A DNA stretch of 34,573 bases from a virus (lineage: Duplodnaviria > Caudoviricetes): positions 1 through 34,573 of the IMG/VR virus record IMGVR_UViG_3300017766_001405, one strand, 5' to 3'. Shown here piece after piece: positions 19,867 through 34,573 of the stretch. The position numbers and the translations under genes are program-made. How positions within the stretch are numbered: the stretch's first letter is position 1; each line of letters opens with the position of its first letter. The notes beneath the pieces were generated by a model that worked only from the letters and a program-made list of their open reading frames with translations, ran no database searches and was not told where the DNA came from.

Positions 19867-19895
19867 CTCTGTGACTGAGTCGTGAGATTTTGGAA

Positions 19896-20204
19896 ATGGT
19901 AAATCGTGAAACGCTGCGTGATGTCCCCAACACGCAGCCTCCTGCCGCATGGATTGGCGGCAAGCGCACCCTTGCTCCGCTTCTGGTCAAGATGATCGAG
20001 ACCGTGCAACACCAGACCTATGCCGAGCCATTTGTTGGCATGGGCGGTGTGTTCTTCAGGCGCAGGCAAGCGCCCAGGACGGAGGTGATCAATGACCGCT
20101 CCGGTGATGTGGTCAATCTGTTCCGTATCCTTCAGCGGCACTATCCGCAGTTTATGGACACGCTCAAATTCCAGATCACCAGTCGTCGCGAGTTCGAGCG
20201 GCTG
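19896..20204 (+). pseudogene. Truncated D12-class (Dam-like) DNA adenine methyltransferase
   Basis: WIGGKR, YAEPFVGMG (motif I), EVIND and SRREFERL are present; similarity stops there and no DPPY catalytic motif follows. Confidence 0.85.
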
Positions 20205-20257
20205 CCAGCTCTACGATGGTTTACGCCGACAACTTCTAAACCAAAGGAACCCACACC

Positions 20258-20482
20258 ATGCTTATCAAGAACTGGCGGAGCGTGCTTTTGCGCGCGTTGT
20301 CTATGTGGGCTGTCTATATCGCAACAGCCCTGCAAATCGCAGAAAACGCGGTTCCGTATGTGGCTGATCATTTGCCGTGGTGGCTGCCGGTCGGTGTCTT
20401 AATTTTATCGCCAATTTTCAGAATCATATCACAAGGAGGCTTAGATGCCGATCAACAAGATAACGGCAAGCAAGCGCGGTAA
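20258..20482 (+). CDS. Putative holin
   Basis: 74 aa with two TM segments, MLIKNWR...RIISQ pattern; RBS aagga; directly upstream of the lysozyme. Confidence 0.7.
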   Translation: MLIKNWRSVLLRALSMWAVYIATALQIAENAVPYVADHLPWWLPVGVLILSPIFRIISQGGLDADQQDNGKQAR

Positions 20483-21976: not shown

Positions 21977-22240
21977 ATGGCTACCGAACTTCTTGCAACC
22001 GGATCAACGGCTGCCTCTTCTTCTGATCTAGTTGTTGCCGATGGCTCCACGGTTACTGTGGCACTCAAGGGCGACACGACTGGTGAAGCCTATGTACAGA
22101 TCCTTCTCAAAGATGACGCCGGTGCTTACGCGGTCATTGGCGCAATTTCTCCATATCTGCGCGCCGTTGTGATTGCCGCGCCAGGCACATATCGCTTTAC
22201 GCGCCGCGCTGGTGCGGTCTGCGGGGTGTTCAGTGCTTAA
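21977..22240 (+). CDS. Small beta-rich protein, possible virion appendage base
   Basis: 87 aa; RBS aggag; coupled to the following esterase gene. Confidence 0.7.
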   Translation: MATELLATGSTAASSSDLVVADGSTVTVALKGDTTGEAYVQILLKDDAGAYAVIGAISPYLRAVVIAAPGTYRFTRRAGAVCGVFSA

Positions 22241-24590
22241 GACTCTGCTGTCCTCTGTTTTTAGACCGCCTTTACGGGTTAGTGTTAACCAGCCCGCCAG
22301 AGGAAACAAGTTTACGCCTTCCGCCTTCACAATGACGCAGCTTGCAACATCTGGTCGTATTTATCAGCGGTCAACAGCGTCTGGCGGGACGGCGGGCAGA
22401 GGCTACGGATCGATACCAGTCACGGTAAACGTAACGCAGGCTGGAAACATTAAAGCCCGCTGCCGTGCTGTATCGGATGGAACGACAATTTTGCAGGCAC
22501 CATGGACGGCGGCAACGGTCTCTGTGGCTAACGGCGCTGTTTCAATCAACCGTGTGGCGGCAAGAGCGGAACAATTCTATCTAGATTTGTCAGCAGACGG
22601 CACGACGTGGCAAAATGGCACGGTTCCAATTTGGATGGGTCGTCTTGTTGGTGTGTCTGGTCAATCGCAAGCCGTTCGGCAAATTGCGAAGGTGTCAGCC
22701 TATGTTGGCACGATGGCAAGCCTTGGCGTCACCATTAGCCCGAACGGCGCGCTATATGCTGCGGTTGACGATACAAGCATTACAGTTGCCACGGCTGCAT
22801 GGGCGTTACCATCCGATTCTGGACCGTATACCAGCACATTCGCCGCGGAGTTTCTGCGCAGACAAGTCGCGTCATATGGTGTGGCATGCGGTCTCGTTGG
22901 CTATGCGAAGGGCGATACCGCTATTTCCGACTGGGCAAGCGGAACAGCGCAACGCAATAAGCTTCTCGCGACACTAGATGCGGTTGGTGGGTTCGAGGCG
23001 TTCTATTGGCATCAAGGCGGCAATGACGCCGGGGCCGGAACGACGAAGGCAACGTACAAGGCGGCGCTCGACAACCTCTTTGCTGACCTTGCCGCGCATA
23101 ATCCTATCTTTGGCACGAATTTCACGAAGTCCATCACGGCAATGGCAACACGGCTTGCGGCTGGTGCCGGGACCGTTGCGACCGTGCAGGCTATCCGTCA
23201 AGCGTCAAAAGAATGGGCAGCAGCGAACAGCGGAATTTACCTTGAGCCGCATGACCTCAACCTAGAAGACAGCGTGCATCAAGGCCAGCCGGGTAATATC
23301 GTTCTTGCGCAACACCTGCACCGCGCATTTGCCAGCAACGACATCGGCCCTTCGCTGGGCACGCCAACTCGTGCTGCCGGAAGTGCCGTCATTTCAGTTC
23401 CTGTTTCGCTGCCAACTGGCGCAACCTCGATCGTTCTGACAGGTTCGCCGCAAACGCGCTTTACGGTTTATCCATCTGGGACCACTACGGGTGCGCTCAC
23501 TGTGTCATCGTTAGCGTGGAGTGCAGCAACGCAAAGCCTGGAATTGACGCTATCATCTGCTCCAGCGGATTCGCAGGCGTTAGACGTTTATGCGTTCTTG
23601 CATCCAGACCCAAGCGGCACGACTGCGAATGCCAATATGATCCGCGATGACCGCATGGAAGATGGTATCTCCGTTGGTCGATCTCTTGAGCCAACAACGG
23701 CTGGCCCTGTAGTTTGTGCGGCGGTTGGCCCTGCAACGGCCCCGGCTCAAATGTCTGCGCCAACTTTGGCCGCTATTGACGCTTCAATTGCGGTTACACG
23801 CGCTGCGGACCCAAGCAATGGCGGATCAGCGATCACAGGCTATGACCTGCGGTACTCTACCGACGAATCGACATGGACAACCGTTGCGATGACAACCAAC
23901 CCGCATACTGTCAGCGGACTGACGAATGCAACACTGTACTATGTCCAGACGCGGGCGAATAATGCCATCGGTAATGGTGCGTGGAGTGCTTCGGCGTCCG
24001 CAACACCTGCAGCTGTAGTGAGTGCGCCGCTTTCTGATACATTCGCCGCGACAGATGGTACCAACCTTTCCGCCCATGCAGCCGACACCGGGCAGTCATG
24101 GACGGCTGTTGTCGGGACGATGCTTATTGCAAGCAATGAGGTTTACGCCTCTGCGTCTCCGTCAACATACCGTTCGTCTTATACGGCGGCATCCGCAAAC
24201 GCCTATGTGCAAGCAACTTTCCGATTCTTGTCGAGCTTGGCAAGCTCTGCAAATTGGCTGCTTTGCCGATCCACTGCGACCAATACTTGGTATCAGGGCG
24301 GCTATCAGCAGGCAGGGGCAAGCGGTGAAGGCTATTATCTAGGCAAGACCGTGGCTGGCACCTTTACAGTCATTGGCTATTATGCTGCGTCTCCGACTGG
24401 TGATAAGGTTGTCAGGATCGAAACATCAGGTACCACGATTCGCCTATTGGTGGATGGCGCTCAAGTGATTTCGGCAACAGACTCGTCCATTACCGCTGCC
24501 GGTAATGCTGGCATCAGACAAGGTGGATCTAACGCTGCGACGACGACAACCGGCGTTCATATTGACAACATGACCGCTGGCATTTTATAA
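22233..24590 (+). CDS. SGNH/SASA-family carbohydrate O-acetylesterase with Fn3 and C-terminal lectin-like domain
   Basis: GQSQ (block I), WHQGGND (block III), DSVH (DxxH); Fn3 GGSAITGY...YYVQTRANNAIGNGAWS. GTG start at 22233 inferred. Confidence 0.8.
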   Translation: MLKTLLSSVFRPPLRVSVNQPARGNKFTPSAFTMTQLATSGRIYQRSTASGGTAGRGYGSIPVTVNVTQAGNIKARCRAVSDGTTILQAPWTAATVSVANGAVSINRVAARAEQFYLDLSADGTTWQNGTVPIWMGRLVGVSGQSQAVRQIAKVSAYVGTMASLGVTISPNGALYAAVDDTSITVATAAWALPSDSGPYTSTFAAEFLRRQVASYGVACGLVGYAKGDTAISDWASGTAQRNKLLATLDAVGGFEAFYWHQGGNDAGAGTTKATYKAALDNLFADLAAHNPIFGTNFTKSITAMATRLAAGAGTVATVQAIRQASKEWAAANSGIYLEPHDLNLEDSVHQGQPGNIVLAQHLHRAFASNDIGPSLGTPTRAAGSAVISVPVSLPTGATSIVLTGSPQTRFTVYPSGTTTGALTVSSLAWSAATQSLELTLSSAPADSQALDVYAFLHPDPSGTTANANMIRDDRMEDGISVGRSLEPTTAGPVVCAAVGPATAPAQMSAPTLAAIDASIAVTRAADPSNGGSAITGYDLRYSTDESTWTTVAMTTNPHTVSGLTNATLYYVQTRANNAIGNGAWSASASATPAAVVSAPLSDTFAATDGTNLSAHAADTGQSWTAVVGTMLIASNEVYASASPSTYRSSYTAASANAYVQATFRFLSSLASSANWLLCRSTATNTWYQGGYQQAGASGEGYYLGKTVAGTFTVIGYYAASPTGDKVVRIETSGTTIRLLVDGAQVISATDSSITAAGNAGIRQGGSNAATTTTGVHIDNMTAGIL

Positions 24591-24599
24591 CTTCTCACC

Positions 24600-24644
24600 A
24601 AAGCCCCGCCTGCCCTAACCGGCGGCGGGGCTTTTTTTGTTTTT
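24600..24644 (+). terminator. Rho-independent terminator ending the late operon
   Basis: aagccccgcc/ggcggggctt stem followed by a long T tract. Confidence 0.9.
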
Positions 24645-24648
24645 GTGG

Positions 24649-24677
24649 TTGACAGTAGCATCGGCGTGTGCCATGCT
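24649..24677 (+). promoter_or_regulatory. sigma70 promoter for the accessory operon
   Basis: TTGACA (24649-24654), N17, CATGCT with extended TG; RBS gaggag at about 24692. Confidence 0.6.
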
Positions 24678-24704
24678 TTAATAAGAAACCAGAGGAGTTT
24701 TGAA

Positions 24705-25316
24705 ATGCCTTATATCGAACATCTGCATACGAATCCAAACGGCGAAAAAGTAACAATTTACATTGATGATAAATTCAACATAGCCACACTCGGCGCAGGG
24801 TCAAAAATCGGCGCAGGGTCAAAAATCGGCGCAGGGTCAAAAATCGGCGCATGGTCATCAATCGGCGAAGGGTCAAAAATCGGCGCATGGTCATCAATCG
24901 GCGAAGGGTCAAAAATCGGCGCAGGGTCAAAAATCGGCGCATGGTCATCAATCGGCGAAGGGTCATCAATCGGCGCATGTTCATCAATCGGCGAAGGGTC
25001 AAAAATCGGCGCAAATGATGAATGCAACCGTCCCGCCTATATGGCCCCGCTTCCATTTGGTCCGCGTGAGTACTACATAACCATGACCAATAAAAACATG
25101 GCAATCGGTTGTGAGTTGCACACTTTTGAGTGGTGGTGGCATGCATCTGATCGCGATATTCTTGCGCTAGACGGAAGAAAAGCGCTGGAATACTGGGCCA
25201 AAGCAAAGCCGCTCTTGTTTAGCGCGGCTAAAGTGTTTGGTTTTTTTGATGAAGGCATGAAAGCCGCGGAAATTGTGGGAAGCCATAACCAATCAGAAAG
25301 AGGAGATCAATTATGA
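24705..25316 (+). CDS. Hexapeptide-repeat (left-handed beta-helix) protein with a C-terminal IGC...WW domain
   Basis: About 12.5 IGxxSx repeats followed by MAIGCELHTFEWW...LDGRKALEYW. Confidence 0.8.
   Translation: MPYIEHLHTNPNGEKVTIYIDDKFNIATLGAGSKIGAGSKIGAGSKIGAWSSIGEGSKIGAWSSIGEGSKIGAGSKIGAWSSIGEGSSIGACSSIGEGSKIGANDECNRPAYMAPLPFGPREYYITMTNKNMAIGCELHTFEWWWHASDRDILALDGRKALEYWAKAKPLLFSAAKVFGFFDEGMKAAEIVGSHNQSERGDQL
24789..25013 (+). repeat. In-frame 18-bp tandem repeat, about 12.5 copies
   Basis: Units such as atcggcgcagggtcaaaa, atcggcgcatggtcatca and atcggcgaagggtcaaaa. Confidence 0.95.
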
Positions 25317-25954
25317 AAAGCATTACATGCGCATTATTGGCAGCTGTAGTGTTGGGCAGCCCAACATCTGCACAAACGCCAGCAACCACACCACCCGTCC
25401 CAGTTACAGACGCCGCAACCGTCCGCATCACAGTGCCAGACGGCCTTGGTTCCGGCGTTTCACTCGGTAATGGCTTTATCATCACAGCCGCTCATGTGGT
25501 AGGCGATGTCAAGTCAGTCAAGGTGAAATCACGCGCTGGAACAGAGGTTGATGGCGCAGTGCTGTGGGTCAGCAAGGCGTATGACATCGCCCTGGTTAGG
25601 GCAGAACAGAGCTGGCAAGGCGCAAAGCTTGATTGCGGCGTTGCTCATGTTGGAGACCAGATTTCAGCAGTTGGCAATCCTCTTGGATTGGACTTCATAA
25701 CGGCATACGGTCGTATTGCGGGCGATGCGCGTGAACAAGGGCCGTGGAAGTTGGTTTATGTCACAGACATGACGACTGTCATGGGCCAGAGTGGCGGCCC
25801 TGTGTTTTCAGCAAAAGGTGAGCTTATTGGAATCACTGTTGGCGTGATCAGCGCCCCAATGAAATTTAAGGAAGATTATATTCATTCTATTGTCGGCTTC
25901 GGCTTTATCGTGCCGTCGTCTGTAGTTTGCGAACTGATGGGCGGGAGGGTTTGA
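25313..25954 (+). CDS. Secreted trypsin-like (S1) serine protease without PDZ
   Basis: Signal peptide; TAAHVV (His), YDIALV (Asp), GQSGGP (Ser), VGNPLG. Confidence 0.9.
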   Translation: MKSITCALLAAVVLGSPTSAQTPATTPPVPVTDAATVRITVPDGLGSGVSLGNGFIITAAHVVGDVKSVKVKSRAGTEVDGAVLWVSKAYDIALVRAEQSWQGAKLDCGVAHVGDQISAVGNPLGLDFITAYGRIAGDAREQGPWKLVYVTDMTTVMGQSGGPVFSAKGELIGITVGVISAPMKFKEDYIHSIVGFGFIVPSSVVCELMGGRV

Positions 25955-26124
25955 TGGACACGAAGGAAGCGAAAAAGATAGCTAAGTCTTGGGGCTGGAA
26001 ACTCGACGAGCTTCTTGAAGCACTGGAGAACGGCGGAACGTCACTAGACCCGGTGAAGAATATAAGCGCAACGCAAACAGCGCATGAAATCATCACCACG
26101 GCACTCAAGAGGGCAACACCATGA
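25954..26124 (+). CDS. Small hypothetical protein
   Basis: 56 aa from MDTKEA; RBS ggaggg; coupled on both sides. Confidence 0.6.
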   Translation: MDTKEAKKIAKSWGWKLDELLEALENGGTSLDPVKNISATQTAHEIITTALKRATP

Positions 26125-26579
26125 CCCATTCCTCCCCAGTCTATCATCTTGATGGCGACAAGCCCAAAGCAGCCCGCCTTATCGTGCTCAACACATGCTG
26201 GCTTGCGTTCGTAGCATGGGCGGCAGCTATGGGCCATGTGCAGTTTGTGTTCACCCATGATGTGTCGCGGATCAGCTACGGCATTGCCGCAGTGCTTGCC
26301 ATTGGCTTGCTGGCTGTTGCGTTAGGACGCACGGCTCACCTTGCGAGGTTGGAGGTCTGGCTTGTGACGCTTGGCCTGATCGGCAACGTCGTCGGTTTTA
26401 TTCTTGCCCTGCAAAACATCGACACCGGCTCACTGTCGTCACCTGACGGCGTGCAGCGCGTTGCTGCGTCATTGCTTGCCGGGATGGGCGTTGCGTTCTG
26501 CTCGACGCTTGTGGGCGCTATCGGCGCGCTGTGGGTGTCTACGGTGGCTTGGGTTGTTGGTGAGAAGGTGGCTGTGTGA
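26121..26579 (+). CDS. MotA/TolQ/ExbB-like proton-channel membrane protein (minimal)
   Basis: Four hydrophobic segments; LGLIGNVVGFILAL...GMGVAFCSTLVG matches the TM-hairpin signature GLxGTVxG...GxxxAxxTTxxG. Confidence 0.8.
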   Translation: MTHSSPVYHLDGDKPKAARLIVLNTCWLAFVAWAAAMGHVQFVFTHDVSRISYGIAAVLAIGLLAVALGRTAHLARLEVWLVTLGLIGNVVGFILALQNIDTGSLSSPDGVQRVAASLLAGMGVAFCSTLVGAIGALWVSTVAWVVGEKVAV

Positions 26580-27040
26580 TGGTGGAAATTGTTGACAAGC
26601 TACGGTCCCGTCTCGTTTTTCACGCGGACCAAGTGGAGCAGCTTGCTTTCGAATTGGCCTTTGAGTTGGAGGAGGCGAAGCTGGGCCGGAACGACCTAGT
26701 GTCCGTCAACCGCGATAAGTTGCGGGCTGTCGCGATACGCGTTCTTTCTCGCACATGCGCCAATCTTGAAGCGTTGAAATCTGAAAACGAAGATTTTCGA
26801 GCAGGCATCAAGCGCTTGTCGGATGAGGAAGAGTTTTGCGCAGAGACGACCGGCGACAACCCATTCTCAATGGTTCACCTCGCCGCCAAGCTTGCCGCCT
26901 CGGAACAACGCATCAAGGAACTTACAACCGAGCGGCACGTCCTATGCAGCATTGCATTCATCGGCCCTGATGATGTGGCCGAGGCGGCGTTAGAGGCTAT
27001 CCGGGCAGTTCTATCCGCAGCGCCGGAGCCATCCCTATGA
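26576..27040 (+). CDS. Hypothetical coiled-coil phage protein
   Basis: Coupled ORF; C-terminal RAVLSAAPEP is typical of phage accessory proteins. Confidence 0.65.
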   Translation: MMVEIVDKLRSRLVFHADQVEQLAFELAFELEEAKLGRNDLVSVNRDKLRAVAIRVLSRTCANLEALKSENEDFRAGIKRLSDEEEFCAETTGDNPFSMVHLAAKLAASEQRIKELTTERHVLCSIAFIGPDDVAEAALEAIRAVLSAAPEPSL

Positions 27041-27573
27041 CCGCCATCCTCACCCGCGACTTGCTCATGAATTTCTTGATGGGCCTAACTGCCCTTGTGA
27101 TTCTAACGCTGGCGGCAATCAACCCCGCCAGCACAGAAACGCCAATGTCTCAACCGGGCAACCTTGTCGTCTCCGCGGCATGGCCCACCGGGCCAGACGA
27201 CGTTGATTTGTGGCTTTCCGCACCGGGAGACCGCGGCATTGGCTACAGCAATAAATCCGGCAAGGTCTGGAGCCTGCTGCGTGACGATCTAGGCATCGCC
27301 AATGACACGACCCCATTGAACTACGAGTCCGCATTCTCGCGCGGACTACCAGACGGGCAATATGTTGTTAATGTGCGCTGCTATTCGTGCCTATCCGCCG
27401 TGCCTGTTTCTGTTGAAGTTCGCTTGGCAACGGGAGTGTTGGTTTGGAAAGGCACCGTCAATCTATCTGGCTACAAGGATGAAAAGACGGCGATTGCTTG
27501 GGCCATGCGGTCGGGTGCTGTTGTGACAGGCAGCGAGAGTTTTGTTTTTCGGAAAATTAGAGGAGGTGAGTGA
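27037..27573 (+). CDS. ExbD/TolR/MotB-like single-pass protein with a YfaP/DUF2135-like periplasmic domain
   Basis: N-terminal TM begins RDLLMNFL (Asp); then DDVDLW..PG, LLRDDLG, NYE, GQYVVNV. Confidence 0.7.
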   Translation: MTAILTRDLLMNFLMGLTALVILTLAAINPASTETPMSQPGNLVVSAAWPTGPDDVDLWLSAPGDRGIGYSNKSGKVWSLLRDDLGIANDTTPLNYESAFSRGLPDGQYVVNVRCYSCLSAVPVSVEVRLATGVLVWKGTVNLSGYKDEKTAIAWAMRSGAVVTGSESFVFRKIRGGE

Positions 27574-27720
27574 ATGGAATTTACATTAGCGCTAGCAGCA
27601 TTTTGTGGGTTGATGTCGGTTAAGGCTGCGATTGGGAAAGACACATGGAATTGCGTTATTCAGGCATTCCTTTGCTCTTTTAATTTATGGGTGGCGCTCT
27701 CACGGTTGTTTGCATCATGA
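27574..27720 (+). CDS. Small hydrophobic protein, 48 aa (below ORF-track cutoff)
   Basis: Strong RBS gaggagg; MEFTLALAAFCGLMSV...LWVALSRLFAS; ATGA overlap with the next gene. Confidence 0.6.
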   Translation: MEFTLALAAFCGLMSVKAAIGKDTWNCVIQAFLCSFNLWVALSRLFAS

Positions 27721-28139
27721 CCCAAGCCCTAACCCTATGGCTAGCCTTCGTCCTAGCAGCCGGAACAATCGCCTTCTTCGGCACCAAGCGGCAGGCAATT
27801 GCATTTGCAATTGTCGCGATCCTCACAGCGCCAGCCACACTCTTGCCGCTTGGCCAGCCGTCACCACTCAGTCCACCAAAGGACGGCACGGTGCTCGGCT
27901 CAAAGATCGACATCGGGCGCGCTATCTATGTGCTGCTGGACGGGCCTACGCCGCGCTATTATGTCCTGCCGTATTCAGAGCAGACGGCCAAGGCGTTGCA
28001 AGATGCGCAGTCAGCAGCGGAAGGCTCTGGTGGTTCCGTCGTCATGCGAGCTGGTGAGGATGGCTCACCTGGCTTTGCAGAAGATGCGCCGCCGCCAGAG
28101 CCGGTCAAAGGCGCGGAACGCGCTGTTGTAGGAGGGTGA
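27717..28139 (+). CDS. Membrane protein, candidate third component of the MotA-like module
   Basis: Two N-terminal TMs, GQPS, IYVLL...PRYYVLPYS, Pro-rich C-terminus. Confidence 0.7.
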   Translation: MTQALTLWLAFVLAAGTIAFFGTKRQAIAFAIVAILTAPATLLPLGQPSPLSPPKDGTVLGSKIDIGRAIYVLLDGPTPRYYVLPYSEQTAKALQDAQSAAEGSGGSVVMRAGEDGSPGFAEDAPPPEPVKGAERAVVGG

Positions 28140-28140
28140 G

Positions 28141-28269
28141 ATGGACTATAGCGAAAAAATCGTAGAAGAGCTATATGTGCTCAGTGCCGAATTTATTGTT
28201 CTAGCTATTGTGCTCGGCGCAATTTGCTATATTGTGAAAAAGCGGCTTGGGCCGCTAGATGAGGAGTGA
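28141..28269 (+). CDS. Small single-TM protein, 42 aa (below ORF-track cutoff)
   Basis: RBS ggaggg; MDYSEKIVEELYVLSAEFIVLAIVLGAICYIVKKR... Confidence 0.6.
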   Translation: MDYSEKIVEELYVLSAEFIVLAIVLGAICYIVKKRLGPLDEE

Positions 28270-28273
28270 AGTT

Positions 28274-28483
28274 ATGAATGTGAAAGCTTTTCCGTCGGCA
28301 GCAAACGATCAGACAAAAGGGGTGGACCTGCGCGATTGGTTCGCAGGTCAGGCGATAGCCGCATTTATCGCTGGGAGCTTCAATATGCATGACCGTGGCG
28401 AAGACTTGTTAGACGAATCAATTGCGCTTGAATGCTACCAAATCGCCGACGCCATGCTCGCAGCCAGAAAAAAGGAATCCTAA
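28274..28483 (+). CDS. Conserved phage hypothetical protein (LRDxFAxQA family)
   Basis: DLRDWFAGQA...YQIADAMLAAR; RBS gaggag. Confidence 0.8.
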   Translation: MNVKAFPSAANDQTKGVDLRDWFAGQAIAAFIAGSFNMHDRGEDLLDESIALECYQIADAMLAARKKES

Positions 28484-29742
28484 TGAAACAACCAATATCA
28501 GACGAAATTGCCAGACAGGCAGCGGAAGCATACGCCACCCACGGCACACAAACGGCAGCCGCTATTGCTTTAGGCTGGCCTCGCAAGACGCTTTGCAATC
28601 GACTCAAGGTGGCTGCGGAACGCGGCATGTGCGGCACGAAGCCAGTATTGCCGGGGTTCCGTATCAGCCAGGTGACGAATACACCGAAAGGCGACTTTAT
28701 CCAGCAGAAGCCAGAGCGTGGTCCAGAATGGGAAACGCCAGATGGCCATAGCATCAAAGGCATTTCGGCGCTTGTTGATGCGGATGGGAGGACGATTCAG
28801 CAATGGGTGAAAACCACGCAGGCTGCGCAAGACCAAATGGCGGCTTTCCGCGCAATGGTTGAGGCTATGAAAGAAGACTTGCCGCGCGTCACGATGACGT
28901 TTCCGCCCGCAAGCTTTGAGTCCGACCTTTTGAATCAGTTCGTTGTGACAGATTCGCATTTTGGTATGTTAGCCCACCGCGAAGAGACAGGCGCTGATTA
29001 CGATCTGAAGCTTGCCGAACAACTGTTGCTGGATTGGTTCGCCGCTGCTGTAGCGTGCGCACCACAGGCACACACAGCCGTTCTGGCTCAGCTCGGCGAC
29101 CTGCTACACCATGACAGCCTTGAAAGCGTCACGCCAGCCCACAGGCACGTCCTTGACGCTGATAGCCGCCTGCATAAAGTTGTGCGGGTTGTTATCCGCA
29201 CTCTTCGTCGCATCGTTGATATGCTGCTGCAAAAGCACAAGCACGTTCACGTCGTCATGGCGTCTGGCAACCACGACCCGGCGTCTTCCGTGTGGGTGCG
29301 CGAACTGCTGGCAACGATCTATGAAAACGAACCGCGTGTGACGGTTGACACAAGCCCTATGCTGTACTATTCATATGCGTGGGGTTCGACTGCGCTGTTT
29401 TATCACCACGGACACAAGCGCGGGATTAACAACGTTGACGCTACCCTTGCTGGTATCTTCCGCGAGTTGTTTGGTATGTCAAGACACGCCTATGCCCACA
29501 TCGGCCATTTCCACAGTGATGAGGGGCGCAAGTCTGCCCTGATGTATGTTGAGCGCCACGAAACCCTTGCCGCGCCTGACGCCTATGCCGCTGGCGGCGG
29601 CTATCTATCGGGACGGTCCGCCAAGGTCATCACATACAGCAAAAGGTTTGGTGAAGTCGGCAGGAGCACGTTGCGGCCTGAAATGGTGTCTGGGCGGTAT
29701 GCAGCTGCGAATGACAACACCAAAAAGGAGGACGCGGCTTGA
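28483..29742 (+). CDS. HTH plus calcineurin-like metallophosphoesterase
   Basis: N-terminal HTH (QTAAAIALGWPRKTL); DSH, GD..H.D, GNHD, HHGH and GHFH metal motifs. Confidence 0.85.
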   Translation: MKQPISDEIARQAAEAYATHGTQTAAAIALGWPRKTLCNRLKVAAERGMCGTKPVLPGFRISQVTNTPKGDFIQQKPERGPEWETPDGHSIKGISALVDADGRTIQQWVKTTQAAQDQMAAFRAMVEAMKEDLPRVTMTFPPASFESDLLNQFVVTDSHFGMLAHREETGADYDLKLAEQLLLDWFAAAVACAPQAHTAVLAQLGDLLHHDSLESVTPAHRHVLDADSRLHKVVRVVIRTLRRIVDMLLQKHKHVHVVMASGNHDPASSVWVRELLATIYENEPRVTVDTSPMLYYSYAWGSTALFYHHGHKRGINNVDATLAGIFRELFGMSRHAYAHIGHFHSDEGRKSALMYVERHETLAAPDAYAAGGGYLSGRSAKVITYSKRFGEVGRSTLRPEMVSGRYAAANDNTKKEDAA

Positions 29743-29933
29743 ACATCAGTATTGAAGTCAGCGGCACATTTGAGCCAAACGAGCCAGCATTCACCGAATT
29801 CATTGATCATTTCTTTGCCATCCAGAAGCAATCATTTGACGAGGACGGCGGGATGCATACGGCGGGAGTGCAGATGATGCTAGCCTACGATGAGGGGCAA
29901 TTCACTGTCGAAGAACTAATGATGCCCGCCTAA
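29739..29933 (+). CDS. Small acidic hypothetical protein
   Basis: TTG start overlapping the upstream stop; RBS ggagg. Confidence 0.6.
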   Translation: MNISIEVSGTFEPNEPAFTEFIDHFFAIQKQSFDEDGGMHTAGVQMMLAYDEGQFTVEELMMPA

Positions 29934-30010
29934 CTATACCACTTCCACCAACAAAGTATAACACCCCTGCCGTCACCAGCGGCAGTCACCACCAAGAGGA
30001 GAAATAACGA

Positions 30011-30349
30011 ATGGATACAACAATCAGAGAACTGCAGCTTGCCCACGTTGCTCGCCAAGATGAATGGTGCGCGAACCAAAAACCAGACCTTTCTTTTCGT
30101 GGCAACGAAATGGCGGGTGAGGTCGGAGAGGCGTGCAACGTCATCAAGAAGCTGGAGCGTGAGCGTCAAGGGTGGCGGGGGTCGCGGGACACGGTTGACC
30201 ATTTGGGAGATGAGCTTGCTGATGTTGTCCACGCTGCCATCCTTTGCGCTATTACGGCTGGAATCGATCTTGCACCATACGTCATAAGCAAATTCAACGA
30301 TACCAGCACGAAGAATGGACTTGCTACCAAGATCGGCAGTGCGGCATGA
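30011..30349 (+). CDS. MazG-like nucleotide pyrophosphohydrolase
   Basis: GEVGEACN (ExxE) and DELADV (ExxD), plus SKFN. Confidence 0.88.
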   Translation: MDTTIRELQLAHVARQDEWCANQKPDLSFRGNEMAGEVGEACNVIKKLERERQGWRGSRDTVDHLGDELADVVHAAILCAITAGIDLAPYVISKFNDTSTKNGLATKIGSAA

Positions 30350-30525
30350 CAAAAAATTACGCAATCGCAGATTTGCACGGCAGGCATGGCTTGCTGACAA
30401 AGGCTATCGAGCGAATCGAGATGGGAAGCCCAACGGGTGGCACCATCGTTTTTACTGGCGATTACGTTGACCGTGGGCCATCAATCCAAGAGCTTTTGAA
30501 GGAGTCCGCCAATGTCGCAGCATAG
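30346..30525 (+). pseudogene. Truncated Ser/Thr phosphatase-type metallophosphoesterase (NinI/PphA-like)
   Basis: IADLHG and GDYVDRG are present; the ORF ends after 59 aa without GNHE or later motifs. Confidence 0.8.
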
Positions 30526-31480
30526 TATTGAAGATACCTTCATGATTCCAGGCATGGGCGCGCAACCAGTGCCGCCACAGAAATATGTGGCTGCGAATGA
30601 TAATGTTGTGCAGCCAAATGAAAAGCTGCGCCGCATGTTGAGTGGTCAGCTAACTGACGCGGAGAAGGAAGAGATTGATGAGGCGCTATCGGGGGCAAGC
30701 GGCTGGCTCGCCCGTGGCGTATTTATGGAACATTCCTGTCCAGATGAACTAATTTCCGTAGCAAGCGGTGGATATGCAAAGCCATCGGATTGCCGGCCTA
30801 TTCTGAGTAGTGAATATATTTATGAACAGCGCCAGCCGAAAGTTGGCGAAGTATGTGCCAGCAACGGCGAGCTTTGCATTTTCGATGGAATTGACTTTGC
30901 GCCAATTGCAGCCACCCCACCCACTGAAACAAACCGTGGCCCATACGTCGCTACAGCATCTGGCCGCAAGTTCTATCCGCTAGACCCGCGACCAGATGAA
31001 ACACACATCGAAGACATTGCGCATGGCTTGTCTATGTTGTGCCGCTATAACGGGGCTGTGAAGCGCTTCTACAGCGTTGCGGAGCATAGCGTGATGATTG
31101 CGCGCAGCTTGAGGCAATACGGCCCTGTCATACAGCTGTGTGGCCTTCTGCATGACTCCCCGGAAGCACTGTCTGGCTTCGGTGACATTTGCGCGCCGAT
31201 GAAGGGAGAAATCCCAGCTATCTCCGATATTGAGAAGGATATCTATGTGCGGGCCGTGTCGGTACGCTTTGGGTTGCCGCCATTTATTCCACCGGAGGTG
31301 CACGAAGCTGACATGCGAATTCGCAGCAATGAAGTTCAAAACATGGCACCCATGGAATGGCACGCCGCATACAACAACCCGCTTGGCGTGACGCTTCAAT
31401 ACTGGACGCCGGATCAGGCGGAAGACGAGTTCTTGGCTGAGTATGTTCGGTTGGAACGGTTGGTTAGAGGAGTTGTGTGA
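30512..31480 (+). CDS. HD-domain phosphohydrolase (YfbR-like 5'-deoxynucleotidase) with N-terminal extension
   Basis: IEDIAHGLS..CRYNG, YSVAEHS, LLHD..EA...D, EAD. Confidence 0.88.
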   Translation: MSQHSIEDTFMIPGMGAQPVPPQKYVAANDNVVQPNEKLRRMLSGQLTDAEKEEIDEALSGASGWLARGVFMEHSCPDELISVASGGYAKPSDCRPILSSEYIYEQRQPKVGEVCASNGELCIFDGIDFAPIAATPPTETNRGPYVATASGRKFYPLDPRPDETHIEDIAHGLSMLCRYNGAVKRFYSVAEHSVMIARSLRQYGPVIQLCGLLHDSPEALSGFGDICAPMKGEIPAISDIEKDIYVRAVSVRFGLPPFIPPEVHEADMRIRSNEVQNMAPMEWHAAYNNPLGVTLQYWTPDQAEDEFLAEYVRLERLVRGVV

Positions 31481-31728
31481 TGACACTAACTGAAAACCCA
31501 CAATGGAACATCTGGCGAATAAAGAGTAAATATGCGCGCGCCTTATTCACTGTTTTTATCGTCACACCACTACTTCTTGTTGTCACTACCATAACCGCCT
31601 TCCTCGCTTTGATTGTCGGCGCTGCGCACGGAGCGAAATATGCATGGTACATATTCAGTGAGGTTGTTTTAGTGGACAACACATGGATTGGATATTGGCG
31701 CGCCATAACGCTTAGGGGGAAACCGTGA
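31480..31728 (+). CDS. Membrane protein
   Basis: Long hydrophobic segment; RBS gaggag; coupled. Confidence 0.65.
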   Translation: MTLTENPQWNIWRIKSKYARALFTVFIVTPLLLVVTTITAFLALIVGAAHGAKYAWYIFSEVVLVDNTWIGYWRAITLRGKP

Positions 31729-32039
31729 ACCACTTCCACGTAGGCCAAGAAGTCGCCTGCATTGATGACACCACCTTTCCAGAGCAATGGCTCGGCATCC
31801 AGAAAGACAAGATCTACAAAATCCGCTGGATTGGCATGTACAAGAGCTATCTCGCTGGAGAGTACCTTGGCGTGCTGCTGGATGGCGTAACGCGCCCATG
31901 CCCACAGTTTGGCGACAAAGATGTGCCGTTCCGCGCAAGCCGGTTTAGGCCATTGGTGAAAGATCCGATTGCGGTGTTTCGTGGGTTGCTTGCTAGTGGG
32001 CCGGATTTGGCGAAGATTAAGAAGAAGGAGGCAGTATGA
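31725..32039 (+). CDS. Hypothetical phage protein (SH3-like fold suspected)
   Basis: FHVGQEVACID...YKIRWIG...FRASRFRPL; coupled. Confidence 0.7.
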   Translation: MNHFHVGQEVACIDDTTFPEQWLGIQKDKIYKIRWIGMYKSYLAGEYLGVLLDGVTRPCPQFGDKDVPFRASRFRPLVKDPIAVFRGLLASGPDLAKIKKKEAV

Positions 32040-32296
32040 GCACGATGATTGAACGGGTGGTAAAGGCTATCCTTAAGGCTCAATTCTATGATTGTGAGCC
32101 TAATATGTACGAAAGCCTAGATGAGTTTTATCGCACGATAGATGATGAGCACATAGAAGCAGCAAGTTACATGGCGCGGGCCACCATTGAGGCGATGAAG
32201 ACCGCCATGGAAAACGACATTGATTGGGATGGGGATGCAGTTCGCACCTACGTTGCTGGAATCGACGCAGCACTAAACGAGGAGACAAGAAAATGA
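32036..32296 (+). CDS. Hypothetical phage protein
   Basis: MIERVVKAI...ARATIEAM...IDAAL; RBS ggagg. Confidence 0.7.
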   Translation: MSTMIERVVKAILKAQFYDCEPNMYESLDEFYRTIDDEHIEAASYMARATIEAMKTAMENDIDWDGDAVRTYVAGIDAALNEETRK

Positions 32297-32487
32297 AGAT
32301 TGTTGTTGATTACATCGGCGCTGGCATTGCTAGCGACAATAGGCACGCACAAGACATAATGAAATCTCTTGGAATAAGCTATTCTTCGTATCGGACTCAA
32401 TCAGTCGCTGATTGTTGGATTTTTGAAGGGTGCTCCAATATTCCAAAGGAGTTGCCAAGCTATGTCCGCGTCATTCAAAAGCCATGA
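32293..32487 (+). CDS. Hypothetical phage protein
   Basis: Start MKIVVD with RBS gaggag; QSVADCWIF. Confidence 0.65.
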   Translation: MKIVVDYIGAGIASDNRHAQDIMKSLGISYSSYRTQSVADCWIFEGCSNIPKELPSYVRVIQKP

Positions 32488-32747
32488 CGGAAAGGATTGC
32501 GGCAGCCGCCATACAATACGGCGCAACAATTAGCCTTCCTCCGCCGGCAAGGCATCACACAATAATCCAGACAATGGATCTTGAAATGGGTGTTGGTGGC
32601 GCAAGCGCGACACCAGATAGGCAGGGGTTCATCACAGACAAAGGCCGCTTCGTGAACCGTGTCGAGGCGTTTTATATCGCGAGTCAATCCGGTCAAATCG
32701 TCAATCAGGCACAAGGGCCGCAACTTTATTCGGAGGATCTATGGTGA
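32484..32747 (+). CDS. Conserved phage hypothetical protein
   Basis: PPPARHH...QGFITDKGRFVNRVEA...LYSEDLW. Confidence 0.75.
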   Translation: MTERIAAAAIQYGATISLPPPARHHTIIQTMDLEMGVGGASATPDRQGFITDKGRFVNRVEAFYIASQSGQIVNQAQGPQLYSEDLW

Positions 32748-33316
32748 TGACACTACAAGACAAAATCGCAGCAACAGCCGACAAATGCAAAACAGTTGCG
32801 GAATGCGCGCTGCAAGAATTCAGCGACAACTTCACGCTTGCCGCCGTATCGCAAGACGATGGCTGCCTAGCTGCAATCCCATCGAACCCGTCATACATCC
32901 CACCAGAACTTGAACCACTTGCCGCAGCTATCGGCAAGGCCCCGGCCAACGACAACACGGACAGCTTCTTCGACCGCGCCATGCGTGCGCCTTGTGGTGC
33001 TCCGCTGCCAAACGCACGCCGCGACATTAAGATGCATATCGTCAATGAGGCGGCAAGAGTTGTTACCGGAGCGCGCAGGAAGGACTACGGCACCCCAGAA
33101 GACAACTTTGAGCGAATTGCCAAATTCTGGCAGGCGTATTTTGAAAACACCGGGCGCGGATCTGTAGCAATTACCGCGCAAGACGTTTCGCCAATGATGC
33201 GCCTTATGAAAGAGGCGAGGCTGTGTGAATCGCCGAATCACCTTGACAGCTTTGTTGATATTGTCGGATACACGATGACTGGAGCAGAGGTGAATGGCGT
33301 TGAGGTGGCGGGGTGA
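32741..33316 (+). CDS. DUF6378-like (alpha-helical NTP pyrophosphatase-related) protein
   Basis: GARRKDYGTPEDNFERIAKFW...MKEAR...HLDSFVDIVGY. Confidence 0.75.
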   Translation: MVMTLQDKIAATADKCKTVAECALQEFSDNFTLAAVSQDDGCLAAIPSNPSYIPPELEPLAAAIGKAPANDNTDSFFDRAMRAPCGAPLPNARRDIKMHIVNEAARVVTGARRKDYGTPEDNFERIAKFWQAYFENTGRGSVAITAQDVSPMMRLMKEARLCESPNHLDSFVDIVGYTMTGAEVNGVEVAG

Positions 33317-33513
33317 TCGATCTTCCAGTGTACTATATGCCTATGCCAGTAAATGAGAATGGCGATGGGCCAGCATTTGGCGATGAGGTATCGCGCATCA
33401 TTCACGAAGTATGGGACCCGCATTGCAACACAATCTGCACCGCCCCCACAGAAGAACTAGCGCGTTTCATTGCAGATACCATCATGAAAGGAAAATTGCC
33501 AGATGTCAGTTGA
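33313..33513 (+). CDS. Hypothetical protein
   Basis: GTG start coupled to the upstream stop; 66 aa. Confidence 0.6.
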   Translation: MIDLPVYYMPMPVNENGDGPAFGDEVSRIIHEVWDPHCNTICTAPTEELARFIADTIMKGKLPDVS

Positions 33514-33886
33514 CCTAGATGAACTTGACGACCTCATAAGCAGATACGTGTTTAGCGCAAATTTTGATGGCGACACAAGAGAGGAGAGCGATGCTATTCA
33601 CGAATGGGTGCGCGCAGCCGTCCTGGCAGAGCGCAAGCGGTGCGCTGAGACTACAGACAAACATCGAAACGACCTTACGGCAGGAGGTGAGGTCAGGCTG
33701 GTCGCGGCTTACATCAATCGCGAAATCATGAAAGGAGAGTACATCAATGTGGAACGTCAGAGTGGTTCAAAGAAAAGCAGTAACGCGACATATGATGAAT
33801 ATGCCTTAAAATACGGAGCACGATTCAAGCTATCACCGCCACACAACACCAACCCCGCCACTCACCACGGCGGGCTTTTCTTTTAA
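33503..33886 (+). CDS. Hypothetical phage protein
   Basis: AAVLAERKRCA motif common in phage accessory proteins; the C-terminus runs through the terminator. Confidence 0.6.
   Translation: MSVDLDELDDLISRYVFSANFDGDTREESDAIHEWVRAAVLAERKRCAETTDKHRNDLTAGGEVRLVAAYINREIMKGEYINVERQSGSKKSSNATYDEYALKYGARFKLSPPHNTNPATHHGGLFF
33854..33884 (+). terminator. Rho-independent terminator ending the accessory operon
   Basis: cccgcc/ggcggg stem followed by cttttctttt. Confidence 0.75.
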
Positions 33887-33894
33887 CACTCTTG

Positions 33895-34096
33895 CGGTTT
33901 GCAAATGTAATATCGCATAATGCTCCGCGATGATTCATAAGACACCCAGTTTGTATCTAGCCAACGCACACCATTGAATTAAGACCTGATTTGTAATCAG
34001 GTGTAAGTCTGTAATTGGCGATTTTGCGCTAACTAAATATCAATGACTTAGGTAAAGCAAAACCGGCAGTTTGCAATAGCAGGCTGCCGGTTTGTT
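33895..34096. other. Candidate attP with a tRNA-Thr(TGT) anticodon-arm core
   Basis: acctga-tttgtaa-tcaggt (33984-34002); IHF consensus tatcaatgactta (34038-34050); repeats C(A/G)GTTTG at 33895, 33947, 34067 and 34088; adjacent to the int 3' end. Confidence 0.65.
34054..34093 (-). terminator. Inverted repeat downstream of int (probable terminator)
   Basis: aaaccggcag (34060-34069) / ctgccggttt (34084-34093), with a U-rich tail on the minus strand. Confidence 0.55.
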
Positions 34097-34120
34097 GCGT
34101 CAAGAACTAAGGTTTTTGGG

Positions 34121-34573
34121 TTAGTTTTTGCTGTGCTCTTCCAGTTTCAAAATAGCCTGCTCGGCCAGTTGGATCTTCCCGCCTAAATAGTGCGCGTCGA
34201 GAATCGACTCCACGTCCTTCAGGCTATGACCTGTGATTGACGCGATCTGCGCTGTGCTGCATCCAGATATAGCCAGCCGCGTGACAGCCGTGCCGCGCAA
34301 GTCGTGGAACGTCAAGCCAACAATTCCGGCAAGTTGCGCCGCCTTGCGCCATGACGCCTTAAAACCGTCGCTTGTCCATTGCTTGCCGCGTGTCGTCGTT
34401 AAGATCGTGCCGGCGTTGCGAGGTAGTGCGTCCAGCATTGTCCTGATAGGCGCTGCAAGTGGCACAGCCACACGCGCTTTTGTCTTGCCTTGATGCACTC
34501 GCAAAGCGTGACCGTCATAGCTTGACCACTCGGCCTTGAGCAAGTCACCTTGCCGCTGTCCAGTCCACAAGGC
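34121..34573 (-). CDS. int: Tyrosine integrase, C-terminal catalytic part (5' end outside the window)
   Basis: TGQRQGD (Arg), QGKT (Lys), FHDLRG (HxxR), TGH, HY. Confidence 0.95.
   Translation of the reverse strand, partial: ALWTGQRQGDLLKAEWSSYDGHALRVHQGKTKARVAVPLAAPIRTMLDALPRNAGTILTTTRGKQWTSDGFKASWRKAAQLAGIVGLTFHDLRGTAVTRLAISGCSTAQIASITGHSLKDVESILDAHYLGGKIQLAEQAILKLEEHSKN

What the first reader, a model, noticed from the sequence alone, without database searches (positions are those of the whole stretch)
26121..28139. Phage-encoded minimal MotA/TolQ/ExbB-type ion-motor module with a non-canonical partner
Seen: a 152-aa protein with the channel hairpin LGLIGNVVGF...GMGVAFCSTLVG; a 178-aa single-pass protein whose TM starts with an Asp (RDLLMNFL) followed by a DVDLW/RDDLG/NYE beta domain; and a third 2-TM protein. 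All lie in one coupled operon. Established: MotAB, ExbBD, TolQR and ZorAB are 5:2 ion-driven motors that need a TM Asp in the B subunit and ring threonines in the A subunit. Deviations here: almost no cytoplasmic domain, Asn instead of Thr in GLxGT, and a YfaP/DUF2135-like domain in place of an OmpA or ExbD domain. Inference: a dedicated phage envelope motor or channel. It could act in superinfection exclusion, PMF modulation, or interference with host TonB/Tol/Zorya complexes. I know of no characterised phage system of this composition.
Basis: partly seen in the sequence, partly recalled or inferred. Interest (0 to 1): 0.88.

Follow-up and report, generated by a model that had tools for sequence, protein, structure and literature searches.

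The report
Phage-borne three-gene membrane ion motor
This temperate phage carries three membrane-protein genes, kept together in many phages and bacteria, that likely form a stripped-down, unstudied cousin of the ion-driven motors behind flagella and nutrient import, and would act on the infected cell's envelope.

Summary
Observation largely confirmed. Gene A (26121-26579) is a MotA/TolQ/ExbB-family protein. Gene B (27037-27573) has a membrane Asp (193 of 204 trios) and a TerD/DUF2135-like head with invariant acidic residues. Gene C (27717-28139) has two membrane helices and an OB-like domain. Two unrelated ORFs interrupt the trio here. The trio co-occurs in 97 of 99, 76 of 78 and 47 of 48 loci (redundant sets). 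It is in phage 16-3 (p038/p040/p042) and large T4-like Rhizobium phages. It is not phage-specific: B is found in 56 of 401 sampled alphaproteobacterial genomes but only 3 of 300 in the host family. The Asn for Thr is a lineage variant (Thr 150, Asn 50 of 204). One phage clade lost B's Asp and gained a Glu in A (7 of 7 pairs), which suggests that A and B share one ion path. Best reading: a likely 5:2 ion motor whose output faces the periplasm; its job is untested. It is not Mot, Ton, Tol or Zorya. Ten literature searches found no description. This scan noted the same trio on other DNA at least nine times.

The parts
26121..26579 (+). Gene A: 152-aa MotA/TolQ/ExbB-family ring subunit, four hydrophobic segments, almost no cytoplasmic domain
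   Evidence: Pfam PF01618 above cut-off; family profile hits ZorA, MotA, TolQ, PomA and ExbB structures, 23 of 24 hits; hydropathy
26385..26387 (+). A Asn89, aligned to TolQ Thr145 (first pore ring); Thr in most relatives
   Evidence: Register read from the HMMER alignment to TolQ; T150/N50/K4 of 204
26505..26507 (+). A Thr129, aligned to TolQ Thr178 (second pore ring)
   Evidence: alignment; T192/S10 of 204
26576..27040 (+). Passenger ORF (154 aa, soluble), not part of the module
   Evidence: No PHROG hit, no Pfam hit above cut-off; no tblastn match in fetched loci; other phages carry other genes here, e.g. a homing endonuclease
27037..27573 (+). Gene B: 178-aa single-pass axle subunit with a TerD/DUF2135-like beta-sandwich head
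   Evidence: AF2 pLDDT 89.7, helix 2-28 then beta domain; Z 9.9, rmsd 3.5, 129 aligned to TerD homologue 2qz7; W49, D55, D57, D83, D84, G86, E97 invariant in 204 of 204
27058..27060 (+). B Asp8, the predicted ion-binding carboxylate
   Evidence: 119 of 120 close and 139 of 150 diverse homologues; 193 of 204 trios
27574..27720 (+). Passenger ORF (48 aa, one hydrophobic segment), not part of the module
   Evidence: No family hit; no tblastn match in fetched loci
27717..28139 (+). Gene C: 140-aa third subunit, two membrane helices, small OB-like beta domain, Pro/charged tail
   Evidence: AF2 pLDDT 70.5; weak OB-fold matches, best Z 6.6; no Pfam, PHROG, PADLOC or NCBIfam family; near-constant partner of A and B

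Best explanation
The three genes encode a MotA/ExbB-family ring protein, a single-pass partner with a conserved membrane Asp and a two-helix third protein, which likely assemble in the host inner membrane as a self-contained 5:2 ion (probably proton) motor that would work on the periplasmic side of the infected cell's envelope. Shown: homology of A, conservation of the pore residues, the fold of B's head, co-inheritance of all three genes. Inferred from solved relatives: five A subunits surround two B helices, and ions crossing at Asp8, Asn/Thr89 and Thr129 move the ring against the B pair. Inferred from anatomy: A has almost no cytoplasmic domain, so the output is between B's head and C. C would ride on the ring as the TonB/TolA-like third part. 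B's acidic cluster likely binds Ca2+ or a similar cation and grips or gates. The purpose is the least certain step: remodelling or guarding the envelope during infection, for example against a second phage or early lysis. Odds: motor-type A-B complex about 0.8; C a physical part about 0.65; the envelope-work purpose about 0.45.
For: A: Pfam above cut-off; 23 of 24 PDB profile hits are motor ring subunits, best E 4e-9, with both pore-ring positions in register with TolQ T145/T178, which PMC12905483 calls essential with TolR D23 (passages). B Asp in 193 of 204 trios. Of 146 A+B pairs, the 7 with Glu at A125 all lack the B Asp and none of the other 139 has that Glu; this is one clade. One natural A-B fusion, P0351. 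Trio together in 97 of 99 B-centred loci, 35 of 35 A-centred, 76 of 78 in a second viral lineage (the misses at contig ends), and 47 of 48 chromosomal regions. In those 48 regions no other neighbour family recurred in more than 10. B's head residues are more conserved than the membrane Asp. C is fused to a phage lysozyme in 6 viral loci, which fits a periplasmic C-terminus. The host family almost lacks the module: 3 of 300, the two strong hits in prophage-like context. It also sits in T4-like phages among replication genes.
Against: No experiment and no expression data. Both conserved prolines of TolQ (P138, P187) and its E173 have no counterpart among the six commonest residues at those columns, so coupling may differ or be absent. 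C has no SHLS motif and no His in its helices (sequence). The Asp-to-Glu swap, the lysozyme fusion and the A-B fusion are each probably one event; the lysozyme keeps its own Met and P0351 is a singleton. Five chromosomal pairs have Val at B8 with an Asp four residues earlier, and four have Lys at A89. The TerD link is structural only; profile comparison is not significant (E 0.062). The locus counts are redundant (204 trios, about 130 effective). Nothing here names a substrate or target.
Confidence: 0.55

Rival explanations
1. The complex is a gated leak, not a working motor. B's head senses an envelope event (a second phage, cation loss) and opens the pore, depolarising the cell to block DNA entry or to time lysis.
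For: A's nearest library hits include ZorA models. The phage copies have lost the cytoplasmic domain (19 against 69 residues) and lack the coupling prolines. The pore residue varies only in one viral clade (Asn).
Against: ZorA scores are far below cut-off (22.9 against 500 bits) and cover only the shared hairpin. No ZorB-like or effector genes are near. The operon sits among housekeeping genes in bacteria. A plain leak would not need three conserved proteins.
Confidence: 0.2
2. The trio is a metabolic helper. It uses the ion gradient to capture or deliver a cation (Ca2+ or lanthanide) or another small ligand in the periplasm, and phages carry it to boost the host.
For: Invariant acidic cluster in a fold whose solved relative is titled calcium-binding (2kxt). 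A PQQ dehydrogenase family recurs in 5 of 48 chromosomal regions. A lipoprotein-like fourth gene in 10 of 48.
Against: 43 of 48 regions lack that PQQ family; a TonB-dependent receptor was seen in 1 of 20 regions scanned. Phage copies sit among ordinary phage genes.
Confidence: 0.13
3. The phage proteins are decoys that mix into and poison host ExbBD, TolQR, MotAB or ZorAB complexes, removing receptor energisation for rival phages.
For: A is a minimal ring subunit with an altered pore residue.
Against: A always travels with its own B and C. The Asp/Glu swap implies selection on an A-B ion path of its own. Bacteria keep the same trio on their chromosomes.
Confidence: 0.07
4. The trio is an accessory of lysis that positions or activates a wall-cutting enzyme.
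For: C-lysozyme fusions in 6 viral loci and an 86-member Atlas cluster of that build. In this window the operon follows the lysis and tail genes on the same strand.
Against: One lineage only, and the lysozyme keeps its own Met. This phage has a separate endolysin 5 kb upstream. Bacteria without phage context keep the trio.
Confidence: 0.05

Closest known systems
TolQ-TolR-TolA and ExbB-ExbD-TonB (Tol and Ton motors)
   Same: Homologous ring hairpin with the two pore positions in register; single-pass partner with a membrane Asp; A-B gene order; a third membrane protein.
   Different: Four helices and no cytoplasmic domain in A; no counterpart of P138, P187 or E173; TerD/DUF2135-like head instead of the ExbD domain; C has two helices, no SHLS and no long linker; no linked TolB, Pal or TonB.
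ZorAB (Zorya anti-phage motor)
   Same: Top profile hits for A; a 5:2-type motor in a phage-host setting.
   Different: No long cytoplasmic tail, no OmpA-like ZorB domain, no ZorC/D/E; carried by phages; scores far below family cut-offs.
MotAB / PomAB flagellar stators
   Same: Four-helix ring subunit, membrane Asp on the axle (PMC9389320, passages).
   Different: No torque-generating cytoplasmic domain, no plug-linker or OmpA-like domain (defining traits in PMC12505986), no flagellar genes near.
TolQ-like + transpore-helix vWA motors (Williams-Jones et al. 2025, PMC12204202)
   Same: A predicted motor of unknown function whose axle has the Asp but a non-ExbD periplasmic domain (section 8).
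   Different: vWA fold, mostly heterologous pairs, no C-like gene; the main text has no TerD, YfaP or DUF2135.
GldLM (type IX secretion motor)
   Same: The essential carboxylate lies on the ring subunit (GldL E49, PMC8986121 passages), as predicted for the swap clade L059/L066/L068/L072/L074/L106/L107.
   Different: No GldL/GldM hit; this window's copy has the ordinary axle Asp.
TerD and DUF2135/YfaP domains
   Same: Fold of B's head (Z 9.9 and 9.0, next 6.0); DxD and RDD/GDN motifs line up; weak DUF2135 hits in 4 of 150.
   Different: Membrane-anchored and predicted periplasmic; no Pfam TerD hit; no ter operon genes near.

Membership tests
MotA/TolQ/ExbB-type 5:2 ion motors (superfamily) | Ring subunit with the PF01618 helical hairpin | tested here: met
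   24.6 bits over cut-off 22.9; profile E down to 4e-9 against solved ring subunits
MotA/TolQ/ExbB-type 5:2 ion motors (superfamily) | Single-pass partner downstream with a conserved membrane Asp | tested here: met
   Helix 2-28; Asp8 in 193 of 204
MotA/TolQ/ExbB-type 5:2 ion motors (superfamily) | Two pore threonines (TolQ T145/T178) | tested here: inconclusive
   Second met (Thr129). First is Asn in this copy but Thr in 150 of 204 relatives; whether Asn works is untested
MotA/TolQ/ExbB-type 5:2 ion motors (superfamily) | 5:2 assembly, ion flux and rotation | not testable with these tools
   The complex tool takes at most 6 chains; no functional assay
Ton / Tol motors | ExbD/TolR periplasmic domain | tested here: not met
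   B's head is a well-predicted beta-sandwich matching TerD; no ExbD hit in 150 homologues or NCBIfam
Ton / Tol motors | TonB/TolA transducer with SHLS helix, long linker and TonB_C/TolA domain | tested here: not met
   C has two helices without His, no long linker, no family hit
Ton / Tol motors | Conserved ring prolines (TolQ P138, P187) | tested here: not met
   Val82 and Trp138 here; no Pro among the six commonest residues of either column
Zorya ZorAB | Long ZorA tail, OmpA-like ZorB, effector genes | tested here: not met
   A is 152 aa; B and C have no PADLOC hit; ZorA models far below cut-off
Flagellar stators MotAB/PomAB | Torque-generating cytoplasmic domain and OmpA-like B domain | tested here: not met
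   19-residue stretch between helices 2 and 3; TerD-like head
TerD family (PF02342) | Sequence profile match | tested here: not met
   No TerD hit in 150 members; hhalign E 0.062
TerD family (PF02342) | TerD fold | tested here: met
   Z 9.9, rmsd 3.5, 129 residues aligned, predicted model against 2qz7
TerD family (PF02342) | Ca2+ binding | not testable with these tools
   Invariant acidic residues are only suggestive
OB-fold proteins (C domain) | Five-stranded barrel with a helix after strand 3 | tested here: inconclusive
   Topology fits, nearly all domain hits are OB folds, but best Z 6.6 is under the tool's mark of 8

The most novel reading that the evidence does not exclude
This is a separate class of ion-driven rotary motor that phages use as their own envelope machine. 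A cation-gated TerD-like head turns against a ring-borne OB-domain partner to remodel the wall or shut out a second phage, and the family has moved its essential carboxylate from axle to ring in one phage clade, a natural switch from MotAB-type to GldLM-type chemistry on one scaffold.
Probability: 0.22. Interest if true: 0.9.

Novelty: new variant of a known kind. Interest (0 to 1): 0.72.

Why it matters
Known 5:2 motors are bacterial machines that phages exploit or are stopped by. Here phages carry one of their own into a host family that almost lacks it. The family is large (1,661 B clusters at 50% identity) and unnamed. The phage copy is close to a minimal motor, about 470 residues in all. 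It sits in the classical, cultivable phage 16-3 of Sinorhizobium meliloti, so its job can be tested at once. Natural variants (Thr/Asn/Lys ring, axle Asp against ring Glu) test which residues such motors really need.

Tried and rejected
Complex prediction of three A, two B and one C with C scored: no answer (0.03 and 0.00, mark 0.32); no evidence either way. Mutual information between A, B and C over 204 trios gave only clade markers. Profile comparison of B with TerD was not significant. The B and C profiles found no solved relative by sequence (best E 0.07 and 0.91). Foldseek on C gave nothing at E<=0.001; the wide search was filled by helical hairpins. The viral structure library gave no full-length B relative, only TerD-like domains. 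Promoter and terminator counts at 24000-34573 were at shuffle level. Sequencing runs: no RNA holder listed. The upstream secreted trypsin-like protease (25313-25954) was rejected as a core part: present in 39 of 74 lineage-1 viral loci, as often as the exonuclease (38), but 0 of 40 chromosomal and 1 of 78 lineage-2 loci; phiM9 has the protease but gave no B candidate. Replacement of a host copy was rejected because the host family almost lacks it. Asn89 as a sign of a dead pore was rejected as unlikely: it flips with Thr several times in the viral clade. The test of one viral clade did not finish, so no donor is claimed. The metagenome collection was not scanned. Literature: ten searches listed no paper on this trio; the library lacks most subscription papers, and the supplements of bioRxiv 10.64898/2026.10.24.761521, which I could not see, may list these proteins.

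Full report
Setting. The window is a 34.6-kb fragment of a temperate HK97-type siphophage: terminase, portal, capsid, tail and endolysin genes on the + strand, and an integrase on the - strand at 34223-34570. Its layout matches Rhizobium phage 16-3, and its closest protein relatives with names are from Rhizobium, Sinorhizobium and Mesorhizobium. The host is therefore inferred to be a rhizobium.

Observation. The three ORFs and all quoted motifs are present. A is 26121-26579, B is 27037-27573, and C most likely starts at 27717. They are separated by a 154-aa and a 48-aa ORF, all joined by overlapping or abutting starts and stops. These passengers matched no fetched locus. Related phages carry other genes in the same gaps.

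Gene A. It passes the Pfam MotA_ExbB cut-off. A profile of 150 relatives hit 24 distinct PDB sequences at E<=1, of which 23 are ring subunits of ZorA, MotA, TolQ, PomA or ExbB type. From the printed TolQ alignment, N89 = T145, T129 = T178, V124 = E173, A125 = A174, V82 = P138 and W138 = P187. PMC12905483 (passages seen) names TolR D23 with TolQ T145/T178, and ExbD D25 with ExbB T148/T181, as essential. In 204 non-identical trios position 89 is T150/N50/K4 and position 129 is T192/S10; the prolines and the Glu are not among the six commonest residues of their columns. Asn occurs only in one viral and prophage clade and flips with Thr several times. A has four hydrophobic segments. The stretch at positions 66-84 has a median of 19 residues in this viral lineage (n=81), 39.5 in a second viral lineage (n=68) and 69 in chromosomal copies (n=55). 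The phage copy is the shortest form.

Gene B. The model is confident (pLDDT 89.7): one helix at 2-28, then a beta-sandwich. The best structural matches are TerD proteins (Z 9.9, rmsd 3.5, 129 aligned; Z 9.0), well above the next row at 6.0; Foldseek agrees weakly (E 1.3e-3). DUF2135 hits 4 of 150 diverse members weakly, and the B profile finds DUF2135 regions in longer proteins. Profile comparison with TerD is not significant, though W, DxD and RDD/GDN line up. Asp8 is kept in 119 of 120 close and 139 of 150 diverse homologues and in 193 of 204 trios. Of the 11 exceptions, five have an Asp four residues earlier, five belong to the swap clade, and one is a misalignment. W49, D55, D57, D83, D84, G86 and E97 are invariant in 204 of 204. 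A cation site is inferred from this and from the title of PDB 2kxt; it is not shown.

A compensatory swap. Among 146 A+B pairs, seven have Glu at A125. All seven lack B's Asp, and none of the other 139 has the Glu. They form one clade (support 1.0), so this is one event. It suggests that a carboxylate is needed in a path shared by A and B. A ring-borne Glu is the arrangement in GldL (E49; PMC8986121, passages). A single A-B fusion protein also exists (P0351).

Gene C. No family in four libraries. The model (pLDDT 70.5) shows two helices, then three strands, a helix and two strands. Matches to this domain are nearly all OB folds, at best Z 6.6, which is inconclusive. Six viral loci carry C fused to a phage lysozyme; the lysozyme begins with its own Met, so the fusion may be recent.

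Co-occurrence. Of 99 loci fetched through B, 97 hold A and C; the two others end just after B. All 35 loci fetched through A hold B and C, many being the same contigs. In a second viral lineage 76 of 78 loci hold all three, and the two others start at B; that scan kept 80 of 194 matches. Of 48 chromosomal regions, 47 hold all three and no other family recurs in more than 10. These sets are redundant and were chosen by B similarity.

Distribution. B has 1,661 clusters at 50% identity. It is found in 56 of 401 genomes of the class of a Geminicoccaceae genome (Alphaproteobacteria; a few weak hits are probably other DUF2135 proteins) and 20 of 401 of its phylum, seven of these only DUF2135 proteins. 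Chromosomal copies lie among housekeeping genes. In the family of Rhizobium esperanzae only 3 of 300 genomes match (one more unscored): two beside phage genes and one weak hit without A or C. Among 50,697 phage records, 29 match, all Rhizobium or Sinorhizobium phages, duplicates included. They include 16-3 (p038, p040, p042), 68-kb phages, T4-like Pootjesviridae and a 171-kb phage; in the three distant ones I opened the genes are adjacent. A likelihood tree of 48 of the 204 trios joins this viral lineage with one chromosomal group (100/97) and the second viral lineage with another (100/99). This implies at least two exchanges between phages and chromosomes; direction is not resolved.

Mechanism. 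From the known 5:2 family (PMC9389320, passages), five A around two B helices with ion flow at Asp8 is the likely build. With no cytoplasmic domain, output must be periplasmic or in the membrane. The most conserved surface is B's head, and C is never dropped, so I infer that the head works against C, which rides on the ring. The host lacks its own copy and the three genes move as a set, so the machine is likely self-sufficient. Presence in T4-like phages suggests action during infection, not only in lysogens. The best single reading is an envelope-working motor (0.55). A gated leak (0.2), a metabolic helper (0.13), a decoy (0.07) and a lysis accessory (0.05) are the rivals.

Known or new. It fails defining tests for Ton, Tol, Mot and Zorya but meets the superfamily's sequence hallmarks. 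The nearest idea in print is the TolQ-like motor with a vWA-bearing axle (PMC12204202, section 8 read), a different fold; its main text lacks TerD, YfaP and DUF2135. PMC12505986 (abstract, first part of Results, term search) places such homologues among 'generic ion transporters' without naming this one. The AP-16-3 paper PMC10460002 (term search only) and the huge-phage envelope preprint 10.64898/2026.10.24.761521 (abstract and term search; supplements not seen) do not mention MotA or ExbB. Ten searches found no description. Earlier notes of this scan report the same trio on other DNA; they are not independent evidence. Verdict: real, a new variant of a known kind, interest 0.72.

Noticed in passing
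L059, L066, L068, L072, L074, L106, L107 (A column 125, B column 8): One phage clade has lost the axle Asp and gained a Glu on the ring subunit, with Arg and Tyr flanking the lost Asp in B.
   Followed up: partly
L142-L145: Chromosomal copies have Lys at the first pore-ring position (GKVIG) while keeping the Asp.
   Followed up: no
L147-L151: B's Asp lies four residues earlier and a Lys sits in the membrane helix.
   Followed up: no
L305, L306, L308, L311, L315, L317 (gene C): C is fused to a phage lysozyme that keeps its own Met.
   Followed up: partly
window 25313-25954: Secreted trypsin-like protease upstream of the trio. Most cultured rhizobial phages with the trio also carry a homologue, in T4-like ones about 75 kb away.
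   Followed up: partly
L219, L221-L224, L227-L231: A fourth, lipoprotein-like gene (weak DUF3108-like hit) follows C in 10 of 48 chromosomal regions.
   Followed up: no
L217, L218, L225, L226, L231: A PQQ dehydrogenase family lies near the trio in 5 of 48 chromosomal regions.
   Followed up: partly
L097:4902-7416; L136, L137; L119: Variant layouts: A-B-C-B' (L097), two C paralogues (L136, L137), A-C-B (L119).
   Followed up: no
L308:569-1150: A ClpP-like gene sits upstream of A; its family recurs in 15 of the 81 loci clustered.
   Followed up: no
window 24645-25316: Hexapeptide-repeat (GAxSxI) protein with no match in the fetched loci.
   Followed up: no
window 22173-24590: 805-aa ORF with an SGNH/SASA esterase and Fn3 domain after the lysis genes; TM3_3_14B has an SGNH hydrolase at the same place.
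   Followed up: no
window 19890-20402: Short (170 aa) adenine methyltransferase-like ORF covering only the first 71 of 253 Pfam positions; possibly truncated.
   Followed up: no
Azospirillum records, e.g. NZ_CP012915.1: Seven large Azospirillum replicons each hold two B matches; a cultivable host for the chromosomal form.
   Followed up: no
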